Part shown: positions 44,424 to 49,148 of the stretch, piece by piece | Numbering within the stretch: position 1 is the stretch's first letter | How the letters are laid out: every line of letters begins with the position of its first letter | From: Thermofilaceae archaeon | Lineage (GTDB): Archaea > Thermoproteota > Thermoprotei > Thermofilales > Thermofilaceae | Length of the DNA: 64,000 nucleotides | Direction: 5' to 3' | NCBI GenBank assembly: GCA_038861545.1 | Contig: JAWCCZ010000002.1 | Span: 128,001 to 192,000 of the forward strand | Translations under genes and position numbers: made by a program | The notes under the pieces: generated by a model | What the model was told of the DNA's origin: nothing | What the model saw: only the letters and a program-made list of their open reading frames with translations | Databases searched by the model: none

Positions 44424-44996
44424 CTGTCCGAGTGGGCTTGGGACTTGATCTTGACCGCGAGGGATTAGGCAGAGAGCAGACTCACCCTTTGCGGTTCCAG
44501 CGTGGATGTCGCATCCTGCGTCTTCGATAGGAGGGGCCTCTCCACAAGACCCTCGCCCCATTCAAGGTGGATCTCACCCCTCGGACACCGTTGCCTCTTG
44601 CGCTTCACTTCCCTCCCCGCCGCTCCTCGCTCTGGAGCGTACTCGTCTGCGACCCCTGGCTACTGGACCTCATCGAGCCGGCCGGCGCACGAAAAGGAAC
44701 AGCAAAAAAGCTAAGGAGGTGGCATACTGTTATATGAATCGCATCATGTTTCTTGGCATGTTCTAGCTCTCACTTTCGGCACTTAAGTTAATATCACAGA
44801 TGGGCAAAAACTTTACTGCCTCTTTGCCAAAAACTTCTCCTGAGATAAAGGGTATCCTGTGAGATAGCCCCTTCCAAAGCTTCAAGAAAATTTACTTTGA
44901 AGTAAAAGAATCAGTAGCTTTATAATCCTCCCAAGCATGAATGAAATTCACCTTTCCAGGGATATACTTAAAAAATGACTATTAAAAGGGGGGTGC

Positions 44997-46298
44997 ATGG
45001 TTAAGCCTGCGGATGAGGAGAGCAATGCGTTTTTCAGGGACGTATACCCGTTTGTCGATGTTCCACATGTAGGCCTTATAGATGACCGCGAACTAGCTGA
45101 GAACCTTAGCAAAATCTACTTCACGGACACGACTCTTCGGGACGGGCAGCAGGGCTGGAGAGTATTTACCATTAAAGAGCATGAAAGGATATACGAGCTT
45201 CTCGCAGAGATAGGAAAAGCCATAGTCGGCACGGAGGTTTTTCTTTACACTAGTAAAGATAGGGAAGTGGTCAGGCGATTACTGAGTTACGGTTACGAGT
45301 GGCCCAAGTTAATCGCCTGGATAAGAGCTATGCATTCTGACCTTCAGCTAGTTATAGATGCCCGTTTGGATGAAGCGGTTATACTTACGTCAATATCCGA
45401 CTACCACATAAAGTATAAGTTTAATTCCACCAGAGAAGAGGTTACGAGGAAGTACCTAGAGGTTATAGAGAAAGCGCTCAACCATGGCATAACTGTTAAA
45501 GCCTCCCTTGAGGATATAACCAGAGCTGATCTGCACGGTCTCGTAATACCTTTTGTAAGAAAACTTATGGAGCTGAGCGAGAAGTATGGAGTGCAAGTGA
45601 AGATAAAAGTATGCGATACTCTTGGTGTAGGCCTACCCTTCTATGAAGCCCCACTACCTAGAAGTATACCGAGGATTGCCCGGGCTTTAAGAGGCGCTGG
45701 AGTTTCGCAGGAGTACATGGAGTTCCATGGACACAACGATCTGGGCCTCGTCGTGGCTAATCATCTATCAGCATGGCTATATGGGATAGCGTCAGCTAAC
45801 TGCACGCTCCTCGGTATTGGAGAAAGAGCTGGGAACTGTCCCCTCGACATCATGGCTGTGCACTATGCTGGTCTGAGGGGTTCCAATGATATAAATTTAA
45901 AGGCTCTAGCTAAAGTAATTGAAGTTTTTGATGAGATGGGCTATAAAGGTGCCGAGCATTACCCTATTGTTGGCAAGAATGCCTTTAGAACAAAAGCAGG
46001 GATACATGTTGACGGTCTCATGAAGAACCCGGAAGTATACTTGCCGTTTGATCCAATGAAGGTTCTAGGGCGGCCATACTCGGTAGCTATAACTCCTTAC
46101 GCAGGCAGGTCAGCTGTAATATTATGGATAATGAACCACCTTAGATATGATAAATTAAGCAAAGACGATGAACGAGTTACAGCTGTCTACAACGAGATAG
46201 TTGAATACTTCAATAGAACTGATAGAACAGAGCCTTTAAGGGATGAAGAGACAGCTAACTTCATACGAAAATACTTCCCAGAGTTATTTGAACGTTGA
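44997..46298 (+). CDS. DRE-TIM Claisen synthase, most like Re-citrate synthase
   Basis: FFRDVYPF..VP N-terminal extension, TDTTLRDGQQ, SDYHI, HGHND, GIGERAGNCPL, AGIH.DGL.KN.EVY..FD; no LeuA regulatory domain. Confidence 0.8.
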   Translation: MVKPADEESNAFFRDVYPFVDVPHVGLIDDRELAENLSKIYFTDTTLRDGQQGWRVFTIKEHERIYELLAEIGKAIVGTEVFLYTSKDREVVRRLLSYGYEWPKLIAWIRAMHSDLQLVIDARLDEAVILTSISDYHIKYKFNSTREEVTRKYLEVIEKALNHGITVKASLEDITRADLHGLVIPFVRKLMELSEKYGVQVKIKVCDTLGVGLPFYEAPLPRSIPRIARALRGAGVSQEYMEFHGHNDLGLVVANHLSAWLYGIASANCTLLGIGERAGNCPLDIMAVHYAGLRGSNDINLKALAKVIEVFDEMGYKGAEHYPIVGKNAFRTKAGIHVDGLMKNPEVYLPFDPMKVLGRPYSVAITPYAGRSAVILWIMNHLRYDKLSKDDERVTAVYNEIVEYFNRTDRTEPLRDEETANFIRKYFPELFER

Positions 46299-46330
46299 AA
46301 TGTATTACCTAATCTAGCTGGTGAAAATTC

Positions 46331-47584
46331 TTGGGATTCATAGATAGACTCATATCCAGGATTACCGGAAGAGATGTATCTCCAGGAGATATAGTTGTTG
46401 TAAATATTGATGTAGTGTACGCTCAAGATGGGACAGCACCCTTAATTATTGAAACGATAGAGAAAGAATTAGGGTTAGAGGAGTTACTGGCAGCGAATAG
46501 GACTTACTTTTTCATAGATCATTCAGCACCTGCACCTCATATAGCTGCAGCTACGGCTCATAGAGAGATGAGGAGATTCTGTAGGAGGCAAGGTATACGT
46601 TTATACGATGCTGGAAATGGTATATGCCACCAAGTGGCTATAGATGAGGGCATAGTTAGACCCGGCATGGTAGTCATGGGGGCCGACAGCCATACACCCA
46701 CTGTTGGAGCTCTAGGACTTTACGCTTTAGGGGTTGGAAGCACGGATGCGGCCATAGCTATTGCTTATGGGAAACAGTGGACGAGAATCCCTTTTACAGT
46801 GAAAATTGTTCTTACAGGCAGGCCACCTAGAAGTGTTATGTCCAAGGACATAGCCTTAAGCTTAATAGGCGAGCTTAAGACAGACGGTATGGTAGGAAAA
46901 GCTATTGAGTTTCATGGAGAGGCTCTTAAGCACCTTTCCATGGATTCAAGGTTTACTTTGACAAATATGAGTACAGAAATGGGTGCTGAATCGGCTGTAA
47001 TACCAGTGGATGAAGCGGCTAGACAGTGGCTTGAAAACAGAAGTTTAACTCCCCTTAGGTATGTAGACTATGATCCGTTGAAAACCCAGTTTATAGAAGA
47101 GTTAACATTTGAAGTGGATAGGATAGAGCCAATGGTTGCAATGCCACCAGATGTAGATAACGTCTTAGCGGTTAGTGAAATAGAAGATGTAGAGGTGGAT
47201 CAAGTGTTTATAGGCTCCTGCACCAACGGTAGGCTTGAGGATATAGAGATCGCAGCTAGGATTCTTAAGGGTAGGAGAATTCATGGAAATGTTAGGTGTA
47301 TTGTTTCGCCTGCATCTAAAAAAGTGTATTCGGAAGCGCTTAGGGAAGGGTATATCCAGATATTAGCTGAAGCTGGATGCATTGTAGCTCCACCTACCTG
47401 TGGACCTTGTGTAGGGGCACACATGGGTATTCTCGCTGAAGGCGAAGTTGCTTTAGCTACAACTAATAGAAACTTCCCGGGAAGAATGGGGCATAAAAAT
47501 AGCAAGTTATATTTAGCATCGCCAGCCACGGCCGCTGCAACAGCTATAGAGGGCAAGATAACCGATCCGCGTAAATATCTTTAG
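46331..47584 (+). CDS. leuC: 3-isopropylmalate dehydratase/homoaconitase/aconitase family large subunit
   Basis: QDGT, DH, GICHQ, GADSHT, GSCTNGR, CGPC.G, NRNFPGRMG, ASPATAAA. Confidence 0.93.
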   Translation: MGFIDRLISRITGRDVSPGDIVVVNIDVVYAQDGTAPLIIETIEKELGLEELLAANRTYFFIDHSAPAPHIAAATAHREMRRFCRRQGIRLYDAGNGICHQVAIDEGIVRPGMVVMGADSHTPTVGALGLYALGVGSTDAAIAIAYGKQWTRIPFTVKIVLTGRPPRSVMSKDIALSLIGELKTDGMVGKAIEFHGEALKHLSMDSRFTLTNMSTEMGAESAVIPVDEAARQWLENRSLTPLRYVDYDPLKTQFIEELTFEVDRIEPMVAMPPDVDNVLAVSEIEDVEVDQVFIGSCTNGRLEDIEIAARILKGRRIHGNVRCIVSPASKKVYSEALREGYIQILAEAGCIVAPPTCGPCVGAHMGILAEGEVALATTNRNFPGRMGHKNSKLYLASPATAAATAIEGKITDPRKYL

Positions 47585-47586
47585 AG

Positions 47587-48114
47587 ATGATCGACATGGT
47601 AAAAGGTAGATGCTGGAAACTGGGGGATAACGTAAGCACGGACCACATAATATCAGGTAAGCACAAGTTCAGCGCTATAGACAGCCTAGACTCAATGATC
47701 CCCCACGTCCTCGAAGAGGTGATACCTGAGTTTTACAAGAAGGTTAGTAAGGGCGATATAATCGTCGCAGGGAAAAACTTCGGCAAAGGGTCCAGCAGAG
47801 AACAAGCTCCAAGGCTTCTAAAAATAGTCGGCATTTCAGCTGTTGTGTCAAAAAGCTTCGCGCACATCTTCTATAGGAATGCCGTAAACATCGGGCTCCC
47901 GGTCGTAGTAGCACAGAGAATTCCAGAGGTTTCCGAGACTGGTGATATCATAGAAGTAGACCTTGAGAATGGCATCGTGAGAAATGTTACTAAGGGCGTT
48001 GAGGAGCGCATAAGCCCTTTCCCGATAGAGGTGGCAGTAATACTTAAGGCTGGAGGCATTGTTGAATATGTCAAGCGATACGGTGCACCACCATGGCTAG
48101 GAGGTACAAAGTAG
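47587..48114 (+). CDS. leuD: 3-isopropylmalate dehydratase/homoaconitase family small subunit
   Basis: GDNVSTDHII, GKNFGKGSSREQA, SFAHIFYRNAVNIGLP. Confidence 0.93.
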   Translation: MIDMVKGRCWKLGDNVSTDHIISGKHKFSAIDSLDSMIPHVLEEVIPEFYKKVSKGDIIVAGKNFGKGSSREQAPRLLKIVGISAVVSKSFAHIFYRNAVNIGLPVVVAQRIPEVSETGDIIEVDLENGIVRNVTKGVEERISPFPIEVAVILKAGGIVEYVKRYGAPPWLGGTK

Positions 48115-49148
48115 GGTTCATAAGAGGTGATGGAATAGGCCCAGAGATCGTTGATGCGGCGTTGGAGGTTATATCCCATTTAATGCCAGGTATAGAACTC
48201 GTTGAATTTCAAGCTGGTTACGAATATTATAAGAGAACTGGTAAAACCATAGAAGATGATTTTCTCGAAAAGATTGAGGAAGTAGACGCCATTATTAAAG
48301 GACCTCTATATACGCCTTCTCACGATCCTAACTTCAAAAGCGTTAACGTTTTGATTAGGAAGAAACTAGACCTTTACGCAAATATTAGACCATTCAAGAG
48401 CTTTCAAGGGGTTTCTCAGAAAAACTTCAACCTAATCATATTTAGAGAAAGTACTGAGGGAGAATACGTTGGTATAGAGGGTACATTTGGAGACCTAGCT
48501 GTTTCGCTAAGGATAATAACTAGGAAAGGTGCAGAAAGGATATGCAGGCAAGCGTTCAATTATGCAAAAAAAGTGGGGTTAAAACGAGTAACAGTGGTAC
48601 ACAAGGCAAACATTCTTAAATTAAGTGACGGGCTTTTTAGGCAGACGTTTTTCGATGTAGCTAAGGAGTTCCCTGATGCTGTTCCCGAAGAAGTCATAAT
48701 CGATACAGCTACCTATGCCCTTGTGAAAAATCCTGAGAAGTTCCAAGTGCTTGTTACACCAAACCTCTACGGCGATATTCTTTCCGATCTAGTCGGTGGG
48801 CTTGTGGGTAGCCTAGGGCTATGCGGGTCGGCGTTAATAGGCGATAAAATAGGGGTTTTCGAACCCATTCACGGCGTGGCATTAGATATAGCTGGCAAGG
48901 GTATCGCTAACCCCATTGGGATGCTTACAGCTTCAAAGCTCATGCTCGAATATTTAGGACAAAAAAACGAAGATTCAGAAATAATTAGGAAAGCATCAAT
49001 CCTTGAAAATGTCATACGCATAGTTGTAGAGGATAAAAGAGTTTGGACACCTGATCTAGGAGGCCGATACAGAACCGGAGATATAGCCAAAGCTATAATG
49101 GAAGAGTTAAACAATAACACTCTACTAATAGAAAACAATAGAATATAG
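48093..49148 (+). CDS. beta-decarboxylating dehydrogenase, probably NAD-dependent isocitrate dehydrogenase
   Basis: GDGIGPE, KSVNVLIRK, RE.TEGEY, VHKANI, NLYGDILSD, EPIHGVALDIAGKGIANP. Confidence 0.88.
   Translation: MARRYKVGFIRGDGIGPEIVDAALEVISHLMPGIELVEFQAGYEYYKRTGKTIEDDFLEKIEEVDAIIKGPLYTPSHDPNFKSVNVLIRKKLDLYANIRPFKSFQGVSQKNFNLIIFRESTEGEYVGIEGTFGDLAVSLRIITRKGAERICRQAFNYAKKVGLKRVTVVHKANILKLSDGLFRQTFFDVAKEFPDAVPEEVIIDTATYALVKNPEKFQVLVTPNLYGDILSDLVGGLVGSLGLCGSALIGDKIGVFEPIHGVALDIAGKGIANPIGMLTASKLMLEYLGQKNEDSEIIRKASILENVIRIVVEDKRVWTPDLGGRYRTGDIAKAIMEELNNNTLLIENNRI

What the first reader, a model, noticed from the sequence alone, without database searches (positions are those of the whole stretch)
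44997..49148. A 'leuACDB' look-alike that may be a citrate-to-2-oxoglutarate operon: Re-citrate synthase, LeuCD-type aconitase, NAD-IDH
Seen: four tightly packed genes. The synthase has an FRD.YPF..VP N-terminal extension, TDTTLRDGQQ, SDYHI and AGIH.DGL.K..EVY..FD, and no LeuA regulatory domain. The dehydrogenase has S-V-N (KSVNVLIRK) and Asp-Ile in HGVALDIAG. The small-subunit specificity loop reads SGKHKFS. Established: these synthase motifs typify clostridial Re-citrate synthase; Ser/Asn at this position (E. coli IDH S113/N115) select isocitrate over isopropylmalate; Asp-Ile indicates NAD+; methanogen small subunits have YLVY (IPMI) or YLRT (homoaconitase) in this loop. Inference: a self-contained archaeal module making 2-oxoglutarate/glutamate, in which a heterodimeric LeuCD enzyme serves as aconitase. 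Pipelines would probably mis-annotate it as leucine or lysine synthesis.
Basis: partly seen in the sequence, partly recalled or inferred. Interest (0 to 1): 0.8.

Follow-up and report, generated by a model that had tools for sequence, protein, structure and literature searches.

The report
Archaeal Re-citrate synthase to 2-oxoglutarate operon
Four tightly packed genes in an uncultured hot-spring archaeon look like leucine-synthesis genes but most likely make 2-oxoglutarate (the precursor of glutamate) from oxaloacetate and acetyl-CoA, a route known from anaerobic bacteria that databases mislabel in archaea.

Summary
The synthase scores below all curated LeuA, NifV, homocitrate-synthase and CimA cut-offs. 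In trees it falls with the Clostridium kluyveri-type Re-citrate synthase family, not with the NifV, homocitrate or isopropylmalate synthases, and it shares that family's signature motifs.

The genome is 92% complete. It has no Si-citrate synthase and no paralogue of any of the four genes. IlvC, IlvD, LysW, LysX and LysZ were also not found. A glutamate dehydrogenase is present.

The four-gene order recurs in about 14 Thermoproteota genomes, all without Si-citrate synthase. Ignisphaera-like carriers also hold a complete, separate branched-chain cluster and a bona fide NADP-isocitrate dehydrogenase.

The dehydrogenase has the isocitrate-type S-x-N loop. The small-subunit loop matches neither the isopropylmalate nor the homoaconitase type.

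Three caveats apply:
- A nested sister sub-clade of the synthase lies in lysWXZK clusters and is probably a homocitrate synthase, so clade membership alone does not fix the substrate.
- No oxaloacetate-forming enzyme was found.
- Nothing has been assayed.

This scan has already reported similar modules in Thermoplasmata and in bacteria. Verdict: interpretation supported (about 0.75); a new variant of a known kind.

The parts
44767..44996 (+). Upstream intergenic region. It holds A/T-rich TATA-like stretches (TTTATAA at 44919-44925; TTAAAAAA and TATTAAAA at 44968-44987) and a G-rich stretch just before the ATG.
   Evidence: Read directly from the sequence. The promoter assignment is inferred and untested.
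44997..46298 (+). Synthase of 433 aa, a DRE-TIM (HMGL-like) enzyme of the C. kluyveri-type Re-citrate synthase family. Predicted reaction: oxaloacetate + acetyl-CoA to citrate.
45030..45065 (+). N-terminal extension motif FFRDVYPFVDVP. It is shared with the bacterial Re-citrate synthase family and absent from NifV, homocitrate and LeuA-type synthases.
45123..45152 (+). TDTTLRDGQQ. The family signature is RDGQQ, where LeuA, NifV and homocitrate synthases have RDGEQ.
46331..47584 (+). LeuC/HacA-type large subunit of 417 aa, with [4Fe-4S] cysteines C297, C357 and C360. Predicted large subunit of a two-subunit aconitase. It is the only aconitase-family gene in the genome.
47587..48114 (+). LeuD/HacB-type small subunit of 175 aa.
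47653..47673 (+). Substrate-recognition loop SGKHKFS. Relatives have GK[YH]KF[SEG]. The loop is lysine-rich, unlike YLVY (isopropylmalate isomerase) or YLRT (homoaconitase).
48093..49148 (+). Small beta-decarboxylating dehydrogenase of 351 aa, of LeuB size. Predicted NAD-dependent isocitrate dehydrogenase.
48336..48362 (+). KSVNVLIRK, the S-x-N substrate loop found in isocitrate dehydrogenases.
   Evidence: 6lky has YRSVNVTLRQ, whereas Thermus homoisocitrate dehydrogenase has FFGAIRYLRR; the loop is conserved in all four-gene operons.
48870..48896 (+). HGVALDIAG, with Asp-Ile at the cofactor-discriminating position. NAD preference is inferred.
   Evidence: plus established knowledge of this enzyme family.

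Best explanation
The four genes form one operon that encodes the oxidative branch of a split citric-acid pathway, built entirely from paralogues of the leucine pathway.
1. A Re-face-type citrate synthase of the C. kluyveri family condenses acetyl-CoA with oxaloacetate to citrate.
2. A two-subunit LeuCD-type iron-sulfur dehydratase isomerises citrate through cis-aconitate to isocitrate.
3. A small LeuB-sized dehydrogenase, probably NAD-dependent, oxidatively decarboxylates isocitrate to 2-oxoglutarate.
4. The genome's glutamate dehydrogenase then converts 2-oxoglutarate to glutamate.

Shown: the gene anatomy, the family placement of the synthase, conservation of the operon, and the absence of the alternative pathways. 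Inferred: all substrates, the Re stereochemistry, NAD use, and the source of oxaloacetate (probably aspartate transamination).
For: Synthase:
- It scores 190 bits or less against every curated LeuA, NifV, LysS and CimA model, whose cut-offs are 413-950 bits. Bacterial members of its half of the tree score the same way. The other half scores 280-580 bits.
- FastTree and IQ-TREE split the family into two halves with 99% support. P0001 lies in a 20-row archaeal clade within the half that holds P0128 and P0448 (named 'citrate (Re)-synthase' by JGI) and a Desulfovibrionaceae protein.
- It is 40% identical over its full length to P0448, against 24-32% over the core only to NifV, homocitrate and isopropylmalate synthases.
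- The characterised CKL_0973 and SYN_02536 sequences printed in a paper's supplement share its N-terminal motif, S.SDYHIF, EDITRAD, LPRS, E[WF]HGHND, GERTGNCPLE and AGIH.DG motifs.
- The signature positions WIRA, SDYHI, the LPRS insertion and HGHND are kept in the operon-type proteins and in the bacterial Re-type proteins.

Elimination in the window's own genome (92% complete):
- No PF00285 Si-citrate synthase.
- A single aconitase-family gene and no paralogue of any of the four genes.
- No IlvD and no real IlvC.
- No LysW, LysX or LysZ.
- Glutamate dehydrogenase present.

Comparative evidence:
- The four-gene operon occurs in G000, G026, G032, G010-G012 and G086-G094, none of which has Si-citrate synthase.
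- Ignisphaera-like carriers also have a full separate IlvBCD, CimA, LeuA, LeuB and second LeuCD set.
- The same carriers have a bona fide type-II NADP-isocitrate dehydrogenase (588 bits against a cut-off of 335). That enzyme needs a source of isocitrate.

Dehydrogenase:
- Its best solved relatives are NAD-isocitrate dehydrogenases.
- The S-x-N loop is conserved in all four-gene operons.
Against: - No activity data exist for any member of the archaeal clade.
- The characterised Re-citrate synthases themselves could not be placed in the tree. Only motif comparison and automatically named relatives link the clade to them.
- A nested sub-clade of the same archaeal clade sits in lysJ/lysK-lysX-lysW-lysZ clusters and is probably a homocitrate synthase, so substrate choice is labile in this clade.
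- One genome (G007) has a synthase-dehydrogenase pair together with Si-citrate synthase and LysW.
- Ignisphaera-like carriers have weak LysW-like genes 15-25 kb from the operon.
- The dehydrogenase and both dehydratase subunits score below every curated equivalog cut-off, including the isocitrate dehydrogenase and aconitase ones.
- The Thermus homoisocitrate dehydrogenase scores almost as well as the NAD-isocitrate dehydrogenases.
- No PEP carboxylase, pyruvate carboxylase or intact PEP carboxykinase was found to supply oxaloacetate.
- The genome is 8% incomplete.
Confidence: 0.75

Rival explanations
1. The operon encodes homocitrate synthase, homoaconitase and homoisocitrate dehydrogenase. 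It would make 2-oxoadipate from 2-oxoglutarate for the alpha-aminoadipate route to lysine, or for another use.
For: - A sister sub-clade of the synthase lies inside lysWXZK clusters.
- The best small-subunit model is a methanogen HacB2 model (181 bits, below its cut-off of 230).
- Thermus homoisocitrate dehydrogenase is a near-top solved relative of the dehydrogenase.
- Ignisphaera-like carriers have weak LysW-like genes on the same contig.
Against: - The window's genome has no LysW, LysX or LysZ. It would also have no other source of the 2-oxoglutarate substrate, since it lacks Si-citrate synthase and has no other aconitase or isocitrate dehydrogenase.
- The LysW-linked sub-clade has changed six signature positions that the operon type shares with bacterial Re-citrate synthases.
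- The dehydrogenase has S-x-N. The Thermus homoisocitrate enzyme has G-x-I followed by Arg, and the LysW-associated G007 enzyme has S-I-T.
- The small-subunit loop is not YLRT.
Confidence: 0.08
2. The operon is a broad-specificity 2-oxoacid elongation module. It would accept oxaloacetate and also other 2-oxoacids such as 2-oxoglutarate or pyruvate, like the bifunctional Pyrococcus and Thermus enzymes. 2-Oxoglutarate would then be only one of its products.
For: - All four proteins lie between the curated families and reach no equivalog cut-off.
- The genome has only one set of these enzymes.
- Bifunctional isocitrate/homoisocitrate dehydrogenases exist as a curated family (NF040855, hit at 279 bits).
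- The loop sequence is new.
Against: - No downstream pathway for the other products was found in this genome: no IlvC/IlvD and no LysW/X/Z.
- Relatives that do make branched-chain amino acids keep a separate dedicated gene set.
Confidence: 0.12
3. The operon is a true leucine (isopropylmalate) or citramalate/isoleucine gene set, as public annotation says.
For: - The gene order and protein folds are those of leuA-leuC-leuD-leuB.
- NCBI records name homologues 2-isopropylmalate synthase.
- The large subunit passes the archaeal isopropylmalate isomerase/homoaconitase subfamily cut-off.
Against: - No IlvD and no real IlvC are present to supply 2-oxoisovalerate or to use 2-oxobutyrate.
- The synthase is far below the LeuA and CimA cut-offs and lacks the regulatory domain.
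- The dehydrogenase has Ser and Asn where isopropylmalate dehydrogenases have Glu and Leu (established knowledge; loop shown).
- The small-subunit loop is charged, not YLVY.
- Relatives carry a separate canonical Leu/Ile cluster as well.
Confidence: 0.03

Closest known systems
Re-citrate synthase of Clostridium kluyveri (CKL_0973) and Syntrophus aciditrophicus (SYN_02536), both characterised enzymes (cited and printed in PMC12016533)
   Same: - The same DRE-TIM family half in the tree.
- The same N-terminal extension motif, plus RDGQQ, WIRA, S.SDYHI, the LPRS insertion, E[WF]HGHND and AGIH.DG..K...Y..FD.
- No LeuA regulatory domain.
- The host genomes lack Si-citrate synthase.
- About 40% identity to clostridial family representatives.
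   Different: - Here the enzyme is archaeal (Thermofilaceae) and forms its own clade.
- It is encoded first in an operon with a two-subunit dehydratase and a LeuB-sized dehydrogenase.
- No biochemistry has been done on it.
- Its clade also contains a probable homocitrate synthase branch.
Bacterial Re-citrate synthase, aconitase and isocitrate dehydrogenase operons (C. acetobutylicum CAC0970-0972, from my own knowledge), and the Thermoplasmata and bacterial modules reported earlier in this scan (e1-1494965, e1-907808, e1-898872, e1-5579745, e1-4431767)
   Same: The same pathway logic: a LeuA-family citrate synthase replaces the Si-type enzyme, and the three steps to 2-oxoglutarate are encoded together. 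Several of the earlier cases also use a LeuCD-like two-subunit aconitase.
   Different: By their reports, the earlier cases use the Heliomicrobium/Thermoanaerobacter-type (second) Re-citrate synthase clade and an ordinary E. coli-type NADP-isocitrate dehydrogenase. Here the synthase is the C. kluyveri type, the dehydrogenase is a small LeuB-like enzyme with an NAD signature, and the host is a crenarchaeote.
Methanocaldococcus jannaschii isopropylmalate/citramalate isomerase (small subunit MJ1277, PDB 3vba) and homoaconitase (small subunit MJ1271, PDB 2pkp)
   Same: The same two-subunit architecture. The small subunit scores 139 and 118 bits against these two. The large subunit passes the archaeal isopropylmalate isomerase/homoaconitase subfamily cut-offs.
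   Different: The specificity loop reads GK[HY]KFS instead of ARYLVYT or GPYLRTT. Both subunits score below the LeuC, LeuD, HacA and HacB equivalog cut-offs.
Small homodimeric NAD-isocitrate dehydrogenases (PDB 6lky, 6ltf) and Thermus thermophilus homoisocitrate dehydrogenase (PDB 3asj, 1x0l)
   Same: Size of about 335-350 aa and 252-262 bits. It shares the S-x-N loop and the Asp-Ile cofactor motif with the NAD-isocitrate dehydrogenases.
   Different: It scores below all curated isocitrate dehydrogenase cut-offs and reads HGVALDIAG where the relatives have HGSAPDIA. It differs from the Thermus enzyme in the substrate loop.
Ignicoccus hospitalis, an archaeon reported from isotope labelling to use a Re-citrate synthase (Jahn et al. 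2007, as cited in PMC12016533; the paper itself is not held)
   Same: An anaerobic crenarchaeote whose order mostly lacks Si-citrate synthase (PMC5556600). Homologues of the window's synthase occur in Pyrodictium, Stetteria and Thermogladius.
   Different: I could not check whether Ignicoccus carries this gene or operon. That work is physiological, not gene-level.

Membership tests
C. kluyveri-type Re-citrate synthase (EC 2.3.3.3) | HMGL-like DRE-TIM catalytic domain with no LeuA_dimer regulatory domain | tested here: met
   Pfam finds PF00682 plus PF22617 only.
C. kluyveri-type Re-citrate synthase (EC 2.3.3.3) | Family signature motifs: the N-terminal F.[RK]D.[FY]P[FY]..VP extension, RDGQQ, WIRA, S.SDYHI, the LPRS insertion, E[WF]HGHND | tested here: met
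   Compared with CKL_0973 and SYN_02536 as printed in a paper's supplement and with family representatives.
C. kluyveri-type Re-citrate synthase (EC 2.3.3.3) | Groups in a tree with Re-citrate synthases rather than with homocitrate, isopropylmalate or citramalate synthases | tested here: met
   The family splits into two halves at 99% support. Caveat: the Re-type half is anchored by automatically named and motif-matched proteins, not by the characterised sequences themselves.
C. kluyveri-type Re-citrate synthase (EC 2.3.3.3) | Uses oxaloacetate and gives citrate with Re-face stereochemistry; oxygen-sensitive and dependent on Mn2+ or Co2+ | not testable with these tools
   Needs enzyme assays or 13C labelling.
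C. kluyveri-type Re-citrate synthase (EC 2.3.3.3) | Host lacks Si-citrate synthase | tested here: met
   No PF00285 in G000 or in any of about 14 genomes with the four-gene operon.
Homocitrate synthase of the LysW alpha-aminoadipate pathway | Genome encodes the carrier-protein pathway (LysW, LysX, LysZ and the rest), often next to the synthase | tested here: not met
   No LysW, LysX or LysZ in G000. The synthase scores 167 bits against the LysS model, cut-off 413.
2-Isopropylmalate synthase / citramalate synthase | Reaches the curated LeuA or CimA model cut-offs, and the genome has IlvC and IlvD | tested here: not met
   The synthase scores 74-189 bits against cut-offs of 450-950. No IlvD and no real IlvC.
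Aconitase (function), LeuCD-type two-subunit form | Aconitase-superfamily fold with three cysteine ligands for a [4Fe-4S] cluster | tested here: met
   PF00330 and PF00694; C297, C357 and C360.
Aconitase (function), LeuCD-type two-subunit form | Membership of a curated aconitate hydratase family (AcnA, AcnB, PRK07229) | tested here: not met
   341 bits against a cut-off of 612 for PRK07229, and lower for AcnA and AcnB. The function is inferred from operon position and from this being the only family member in the genome.
Isopropylmalate isomerase / methanogen homoaconitase small subunit | Specificity loop YLVY (isopropylmalate isomerase) or YLRT (homoaconitase) | tested here: not met
   The loop is GKHKFS here and GK[YH]KF[SEG] in relatives.
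Isocitrate dehydrogenase (NAD) | Ser and Asn in the substrate loop (E. coli S113 and N115), and Asp-Ile at the cofactor site | tested here: met
   KSVNVLIRK aligns with YRSVNVTLRQ of 6lky. The loop is conserved in all four-gene operons. HGVALDIAG is present.
Isocitrate dehydrogenase (NAD) | Reaches a curated isocitrate dehydrogenase equivalog cut-off | tested here: not met
   292-319 bits against cut-offs of 432-510.

The most novel reading that the evidence does not exclude
This operon would be the gene-level basis of the Re-citrate synthase route inferred long ago from labelling in anaerobic Crenarchaeota. It would be a complete citrate-to-2-oxoglutarate branch made only of leucine-pathway paralogues: a previously uncharacterised two-subunit aconitase with a lysine-rich K-[Y/H]-K-F specificity loop, and a LeuB-sized NAD-isocitrate dehydrogenase. 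The same archaeal synthase clade was later re-tooled into the LysW-linked homocitrate synthase of Thermoproteaceae-like archaea. One clade would then record a natural citrate-to-homocitrate synthase switch marked by six coordinated signature changes: WIRA to WGRA, SDYHI to SDIHI, LPRS to LPYS, HGHND to HGHGD, H.DG to H.DA, and YLPFD to YLSMD.
Probability: 0.45. Interest if true: 0.65.

Novelty: new variant of a known kind. Interest (0 to 1): 0.5.

Why it matters
Many anaerobic Crenarchaeota are described as lacking citrate synthase. One example is the Pyrodictium genome paper, PMC5556600, although Pyrodictium carries a 54%-identical homologue of this synthase. Their citric-acid pathways are therefore drawn as incomplete or reductive.

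Recognising this operon would correct leucine and homocitrate labels in many archaeal genomes. It would also change metabolic reconstructions of hot-spring and vent archaea.

The operon offers enzymes for studying how 2-oxoacid-elongation enzymes choose chain length. Three parallel sets (citrate, isopropylmalate/citramalate and probably homocitrate) coexist in closely related genomes. A two-subunit aconitase has, as far as I could find, not been characterised biochemically: no paper in the searchable library uses such a term.

Tried and rejected
- Characterised reference sequences. I could not put CKL_0973 or SYN_02536 into a tree.
- Word-based protein searches. P0197 reached only metagenomic proteins, automatically named 'citrate (Re)-synthase' or '2-phosphinomethylmalic acid synthase'. 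P0128 reached only Clostridia MAG proteins 78% or more identical to the query. Neither returned a named C. kluyveri entry.
- The search for related loci on genome contigs. It returned 9 useful archaeal loci. The other 71 were distant Bacteroidales and similar hits at about 30% identity.
The contexts of the Pyrodictium, Stetteria, Thermogladius and Desulfovibrionaceae homologues were therefore not examined.
- Papers not held: PMC1913417 (Li 2007), PMC1913412 (Jahn 2007) and PMC3187404 (Marco-Urrea 2011).
- Literature searches for a two-subunit or heterodimeric aconitase, and for other spellings of Re-citrate synthase, found nothing archaeal.
- Expression. No RNA holder is listed for this stretch.
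- Strict complementarity between any synthase homologue and Si-citrate synthase was rejected. Solitary homologues co-occur with Si-citrate synthase in one family. Only the full four-gene operon is exclusive.
- Counting columns where the operon type or the solo type agrees with bacterial Re-type proteins gave 6 against 5. The count is not decisive. The nature of the changes is informative.
- Not used: structure prediction, complex prediction and the protein atlas. None could settle substrate choice.

Full report
**Observation.** The window holds four co-directional ORFs at 44997-46298, 46331-47584, 47587-48114 and 48093-49148. They are separated by 32 nt and 2 nt, and the last two overlap by 22 nt. 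Pfam sees only an HMGL-like domain and the post-HMGL homocitrate-synthase domain in the synthase, with no LeuA regulatory domain. It sees aconitase and aconitase-C domains in the middle two proteins and the Iso_dh domain in the last. The neighbouring genes are unrelated: a flavoprotein disulfide reductase on the other strand upstream, then Nre and ribose-5-phosphate isomerase downstream. The unit therefore stands alone. A/T-rich TATA-like stretches precede it and a short T run follows the stop codon. Neither was tested.

**What curated models say.** Against NCBIfam the synthase scores at most 190 bits, while the LeuA, NifV, LysS and CimA cut-offs are 413-950 bits. The large subunit passes only the broad archaeal isopropylmalate isomerase/homoaconitase subfamily models. 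The small subunit scores 181 bits against a cut-off of 230 for a methanogen HacB2 model. The dehydrogenase is below all isopropylmalate, homoisocitrate and isocitrate dehydrogenase cut-offs. None of the four is a member of a curated, function-specific family.

**The synthase family.**
- A search of 1.84 billion representatives gave a set of full-length relatives that also cover the N-terminal extension.
- Trees of these and some named proteins split the family into two halves, each with 99% support (FastTree; IQ-TREE with SH-aLRT).
- One half holds NifV of Rhodobacter and Klebsiella, homocitrate synthases and isopropylmalate synthases. These carry RDGEQ and score 280-580 bits on the curated models.
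- The other half holds P0001 in a 20-row archaeal clade (99%). It also holds clostridial proteins (P0128, and P0448, which JGI names 'citrate (Re)-synthase'), an Oceanidesulfovibrio protein, and others. These carry RDGQQ and score only 140-200 bits on the same models.
- P0001 is 40% identical to P0448 over its whole length, against 24-32% over the core only to the other half.
- The supplement of PMC12016533 prints the sequences of the two biochemically characterised enzymes, C. kluyveri CKL_0973 and S. aciditrophicus SYN_02536. By eye they share with P0001 the following motifs: the N-terminal F-Y/F-K/R-D-I/V-F/Y-P-Y/F..VP motif, TDTTFRD..Q, TEFFLY..KDR, GYEFPE..WIRA, S.SDYHIF, EDITRAD, CDT[LM]G.G, LPRS, E[WF]HGHND, AWLYG, GIGERTGNCPLE and TRAGIH.DG..K..E.Y..FD.
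- Those sequences could not be typed into a tree, so the anchor is motif-level plus automatic names.
- The same paper states that Re-citrate synthases fall into two types and that an archaeon, Ignicoccus, uses one.

**Elimination inside the genome.** The window lies in a 1.63-Mb assembly of 12 contigs, 92% complete and 0.2% contaminated.
- tblastn finds no paralogue of any of the four proteins.
- There is no Si-citrate synthase and only this one aconitase-family gene.
- There is no IlvD, and the only IlvC-model hits are weak Rossmann-type matches.
- No LysW is found with two models and no LysX.
- The LysX, LysW and LysZ proteins of a relative give no tblastn match.
- A glutamate dehydrogenase is present (224 bits). 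A glutamate-synthase domain is not convincingly present.
- Leucine, isoleucine and carrier-protein lysine synthesis therefore have no surrounding pathway here. 2-Oxoglutarate does have a sink.
- The weak point is the oxaloacetate supply. No archaeal PEP carboxylase or pyruvate carboxylase was found, and PEP carboxykinase is represented only by a 53-residue fragment interrupted by a stop codon. Transamination of aspartate is the likely source. Earlier notes of this scan, which saw aspartate aminotransferase genes fused into operons with bacterial Re-type synthases, make that plausible. I did not test it.

**Comparative evidence.**
- The four genes occur in the same order and spacing in nine loci from Thermofilaceae, Desulfurococcaceae, Ignisphaera and unclassified Thermoproteota assemblies. 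They also occur in G032 and G010-G012 of the window's class.
- Among 86 genomes of the class, 51 have Si-citrate synthase and 15 have a P0001 homologue.
- Every genome with the full operon lacks Si-citrate synthase (G000, G026, G032, G010-G012), as do all nine genomes behind the public loci.
- The complementarity is not general. In one family (f13) a solitary homologue (44-49% identity) co-occurs with Si-citrate synthase. G007 has a synthase-dehydrogenase pair together with Si-citrate synthase.
- Complete Thermofilum-like genomes have neither gene. This fits a dispensable biosynthetic role.

**A natural control.** The Ignisphaera-like carriers (G087-G093) hold the following besides the operon:
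- a canonical cluster with IlvD, IlvB, IlvC, a citramalate synthase (525 bits against a cut-off of 450), a short LeuA-type synthase with RDGEQ, and a LeuB (418 bits against 410);
- a second LeuCD pair whose small-subunit loop reads PAKHL[RK]YT.

They have exactly three synthases. The operon is thus a third, separate elongation module and not their leucine pathway. They also encode a bona fide type-II NADP-isocitrate dehydrogenase about 12 kb from the operon (588 bits against a cut-off of 335). That enzyme has no Si-citrate synthase or classical aconitase to feed it, and the operon is the only candidate source of isocitrate. The same fact means the operon's own dehydrogenase is partly redundant there, which I cannot explain beyond a difference in cofactor.

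**A complication that limits the phylogenetic argument.**
- In f13 genomes the solitary homologue lies next to lysJ, lysK, lysX (324 bits against 276), lysW (92 bits against 75), lysZ (273 bits against 194) and an aminotransferase. It is therefore probably the homocitrate synthase of the alpha-aminoadipate pathway.
- This sub-clade sits on a long branch (0.63) nested between operon-bearing lineages.
- It has lost the N-terminal motif. It has also changed WIRA to WGRA, SDYHI to SDIHI, LPRS to LPYS, HGHND to HGHGD, H.DG to H.DA, and YLPFD to YLSMD.
- The operon-type proteins keep the residues of the bacterial Re-type enzymes at all these positions.
- I read this as retention of the ancestral citrate-forming function in the operon type and a shift in the LysW-linked branch. 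It also shows that substrate choice is labile in this clade.
- Weak LysW-like genes lie 15-25 kb from the operon in Ignisphaera-like genomes. For those genomes the homocitrate reading is not excluded as firmly as it is for the window's genome.

**The dehydratase.** The large subunit has the three cluster cysteines. In alignments with solved structures, the M. jannaschii isopropylmalate/citramalate isomerase loop is ARYLVYT, the homoaconitase loop is GPYLRTT and the P. horikoshii loop is GRYNLTK. The window has SGKHKFS, its close relatives have GK[YH]KF[SEG], and the deeper f10 operons have GR[YF]F[HY]LRG. A basic loop fits a tricarboxylate substrate rather than isopropylmalate. It does not by itself separate aconitate from homoaconitate. 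The aconitase assignment rests on operon position and on this being the only family member in the genome.

**The dehydrogenase.**
- The best solved relatives are small NAD-isocitrate dehydrogenases (6lky 262 bits; 6ltf 255 bits). Thermus homoisocitrate dehydrogenase follows closely (252 bits) and Sulfolobus isopropylmalate dehydrogenase next (239 bits).
- In the substrate loop the window's KSVNVLIRK matches YRSVNVTLRQ and FSSINVAMRR of the isocitrate enzymes. The Thermus homoisocitrate enzyme has FFGAIRYLRR.
- By established knowledge, isopropylmalate dehydrogenases have Glu and Leu at the positions of E. coli S113 and N115.
- S-x-N is kept in all four-gene operons, while the G007 enzyme, which sits in a genome with LysW, has S-I-T.
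- Asp-Ile in HGVALDIAG suggests NAD.

**Comparison with what is known, and novelty.**
- The pathway logic is known from Clostridia, Dehalococcoides, Syntrophus, Desulfovibrio and Heliomicrobium (PMC12016533).
- This scan has already reported similar operons, several with a LeuCD-like two-subunit aconitase, in Thermoplasmata and in bacteria. Those use the other Re-type clade and an ordinary NADP-isocitrate dehydrogenase.
- Two earlier notes describe unresolved four-gene clusters with RDGQQ synthases in other genomes.
- New here: the C. kluyveri-type synthase in Thermoproteota, a LeuB-sized dehydrogenase with isocitrate-type residues, an undescribed small-subunit loop, and the link to a LysW-associated sister branch.
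- In the searchable literature I found no gene-level description for Crenarchaeota and no paper on a two-subunit aconitase. A Pyrodictium genome paper states that citrate synthase is missing from most Desulfurococcales, although Pyrodictium carries a 54%-identical homologue. The key papers of 2007 and 2011 are not held, so prior gene-level identification cannot be excluded.

**Verdict.** It is a variant of a known kind of system, mislabelled in public records, of moderate interest. All substrate assignments remain inferences that simple anoxic enzyme assays or a complementation test would settle.

Noticed in passing
L083:6004-12937 (G056:C1, about 195000-202000): A solitary homologue of the window's synthase (459 aa, 46% identical) lies in a lysJ / synthase-lysK-lysX-lysW-lysZ-aminotransferase cluster, in genomes that also have Si-citrate synthase. 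It is probably a homocitrate synthase derived from the Re-citrate-synthase-like clade, with six coordinated signature changes.
   Followed up: partly
L098:2575-3846 (G088:C1) and L102:1503-2723 (G090:C1): Ignisphaera-like genomes without Si-citrate synthase or classical aconitase encode a bona fide type-II (eukaryote-like) NADP-isocitrate dehydrogenase about 12 kb from the operon. They therefore carry two candidate isocitrate dehydrogenases.
   Followed up: partly
L092:6667-8396, L093:5962-7694 and their counterparts: A second LeuCD pair in Ignisphaera-like genomes has the small-subunit loop PAKHL[RK]YT. It lies on the same contig as, and within 10-15 kb of, a CimA/LeuA/LeuB/IlvBCD cluster, and next to histidine or thiazole genes.
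   Followed up: partly
L084:6870-9215 (G007:C2): A synthase-dehydrogenase pair with no dehydratase genes between them, in a genome that has Si-citrate synthase and LysW. The synthase keeps the Re-type signatures, but the dehydrogenase loop reads S-I-T instead of S-V-N.
   Followed up: no
L085, L086, L090 (G010-G012 operons): The deeper-branching four-gene operons have RDG[VMA]QA instead of RDGQQ and a small-subunit loop GR[YF]F[HY]LRG. Two of them read APQLAG instead of A.DIAG at the cofactor site, which suggests different specificity or cofactor use.
   Followed up: no
G000:C6:4179-4340 (outside the window): The only match to GTP-type PEP carboxykinase is a 53-residue fragment in a 70-aa frame with an internal TGA. 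It looks like a gene relic.
   Followed up: partly
window:43860-44760: Another first-reader note (e1-5615030) describes the DNA just upstream of the operon as a splice of dead Fpg/Nei and LplA gene relics. I saw only short ORFs there and did not examine it.
   Followed up: no
P0130, P0137 (bacterial relatives, about 600 aa): Some bacterial Re-type synthases, such as the printed Syntrophus enzyme, carry a C-terminal extension of about 150 aa that the archaeal proteins lack.
   Followed up: no
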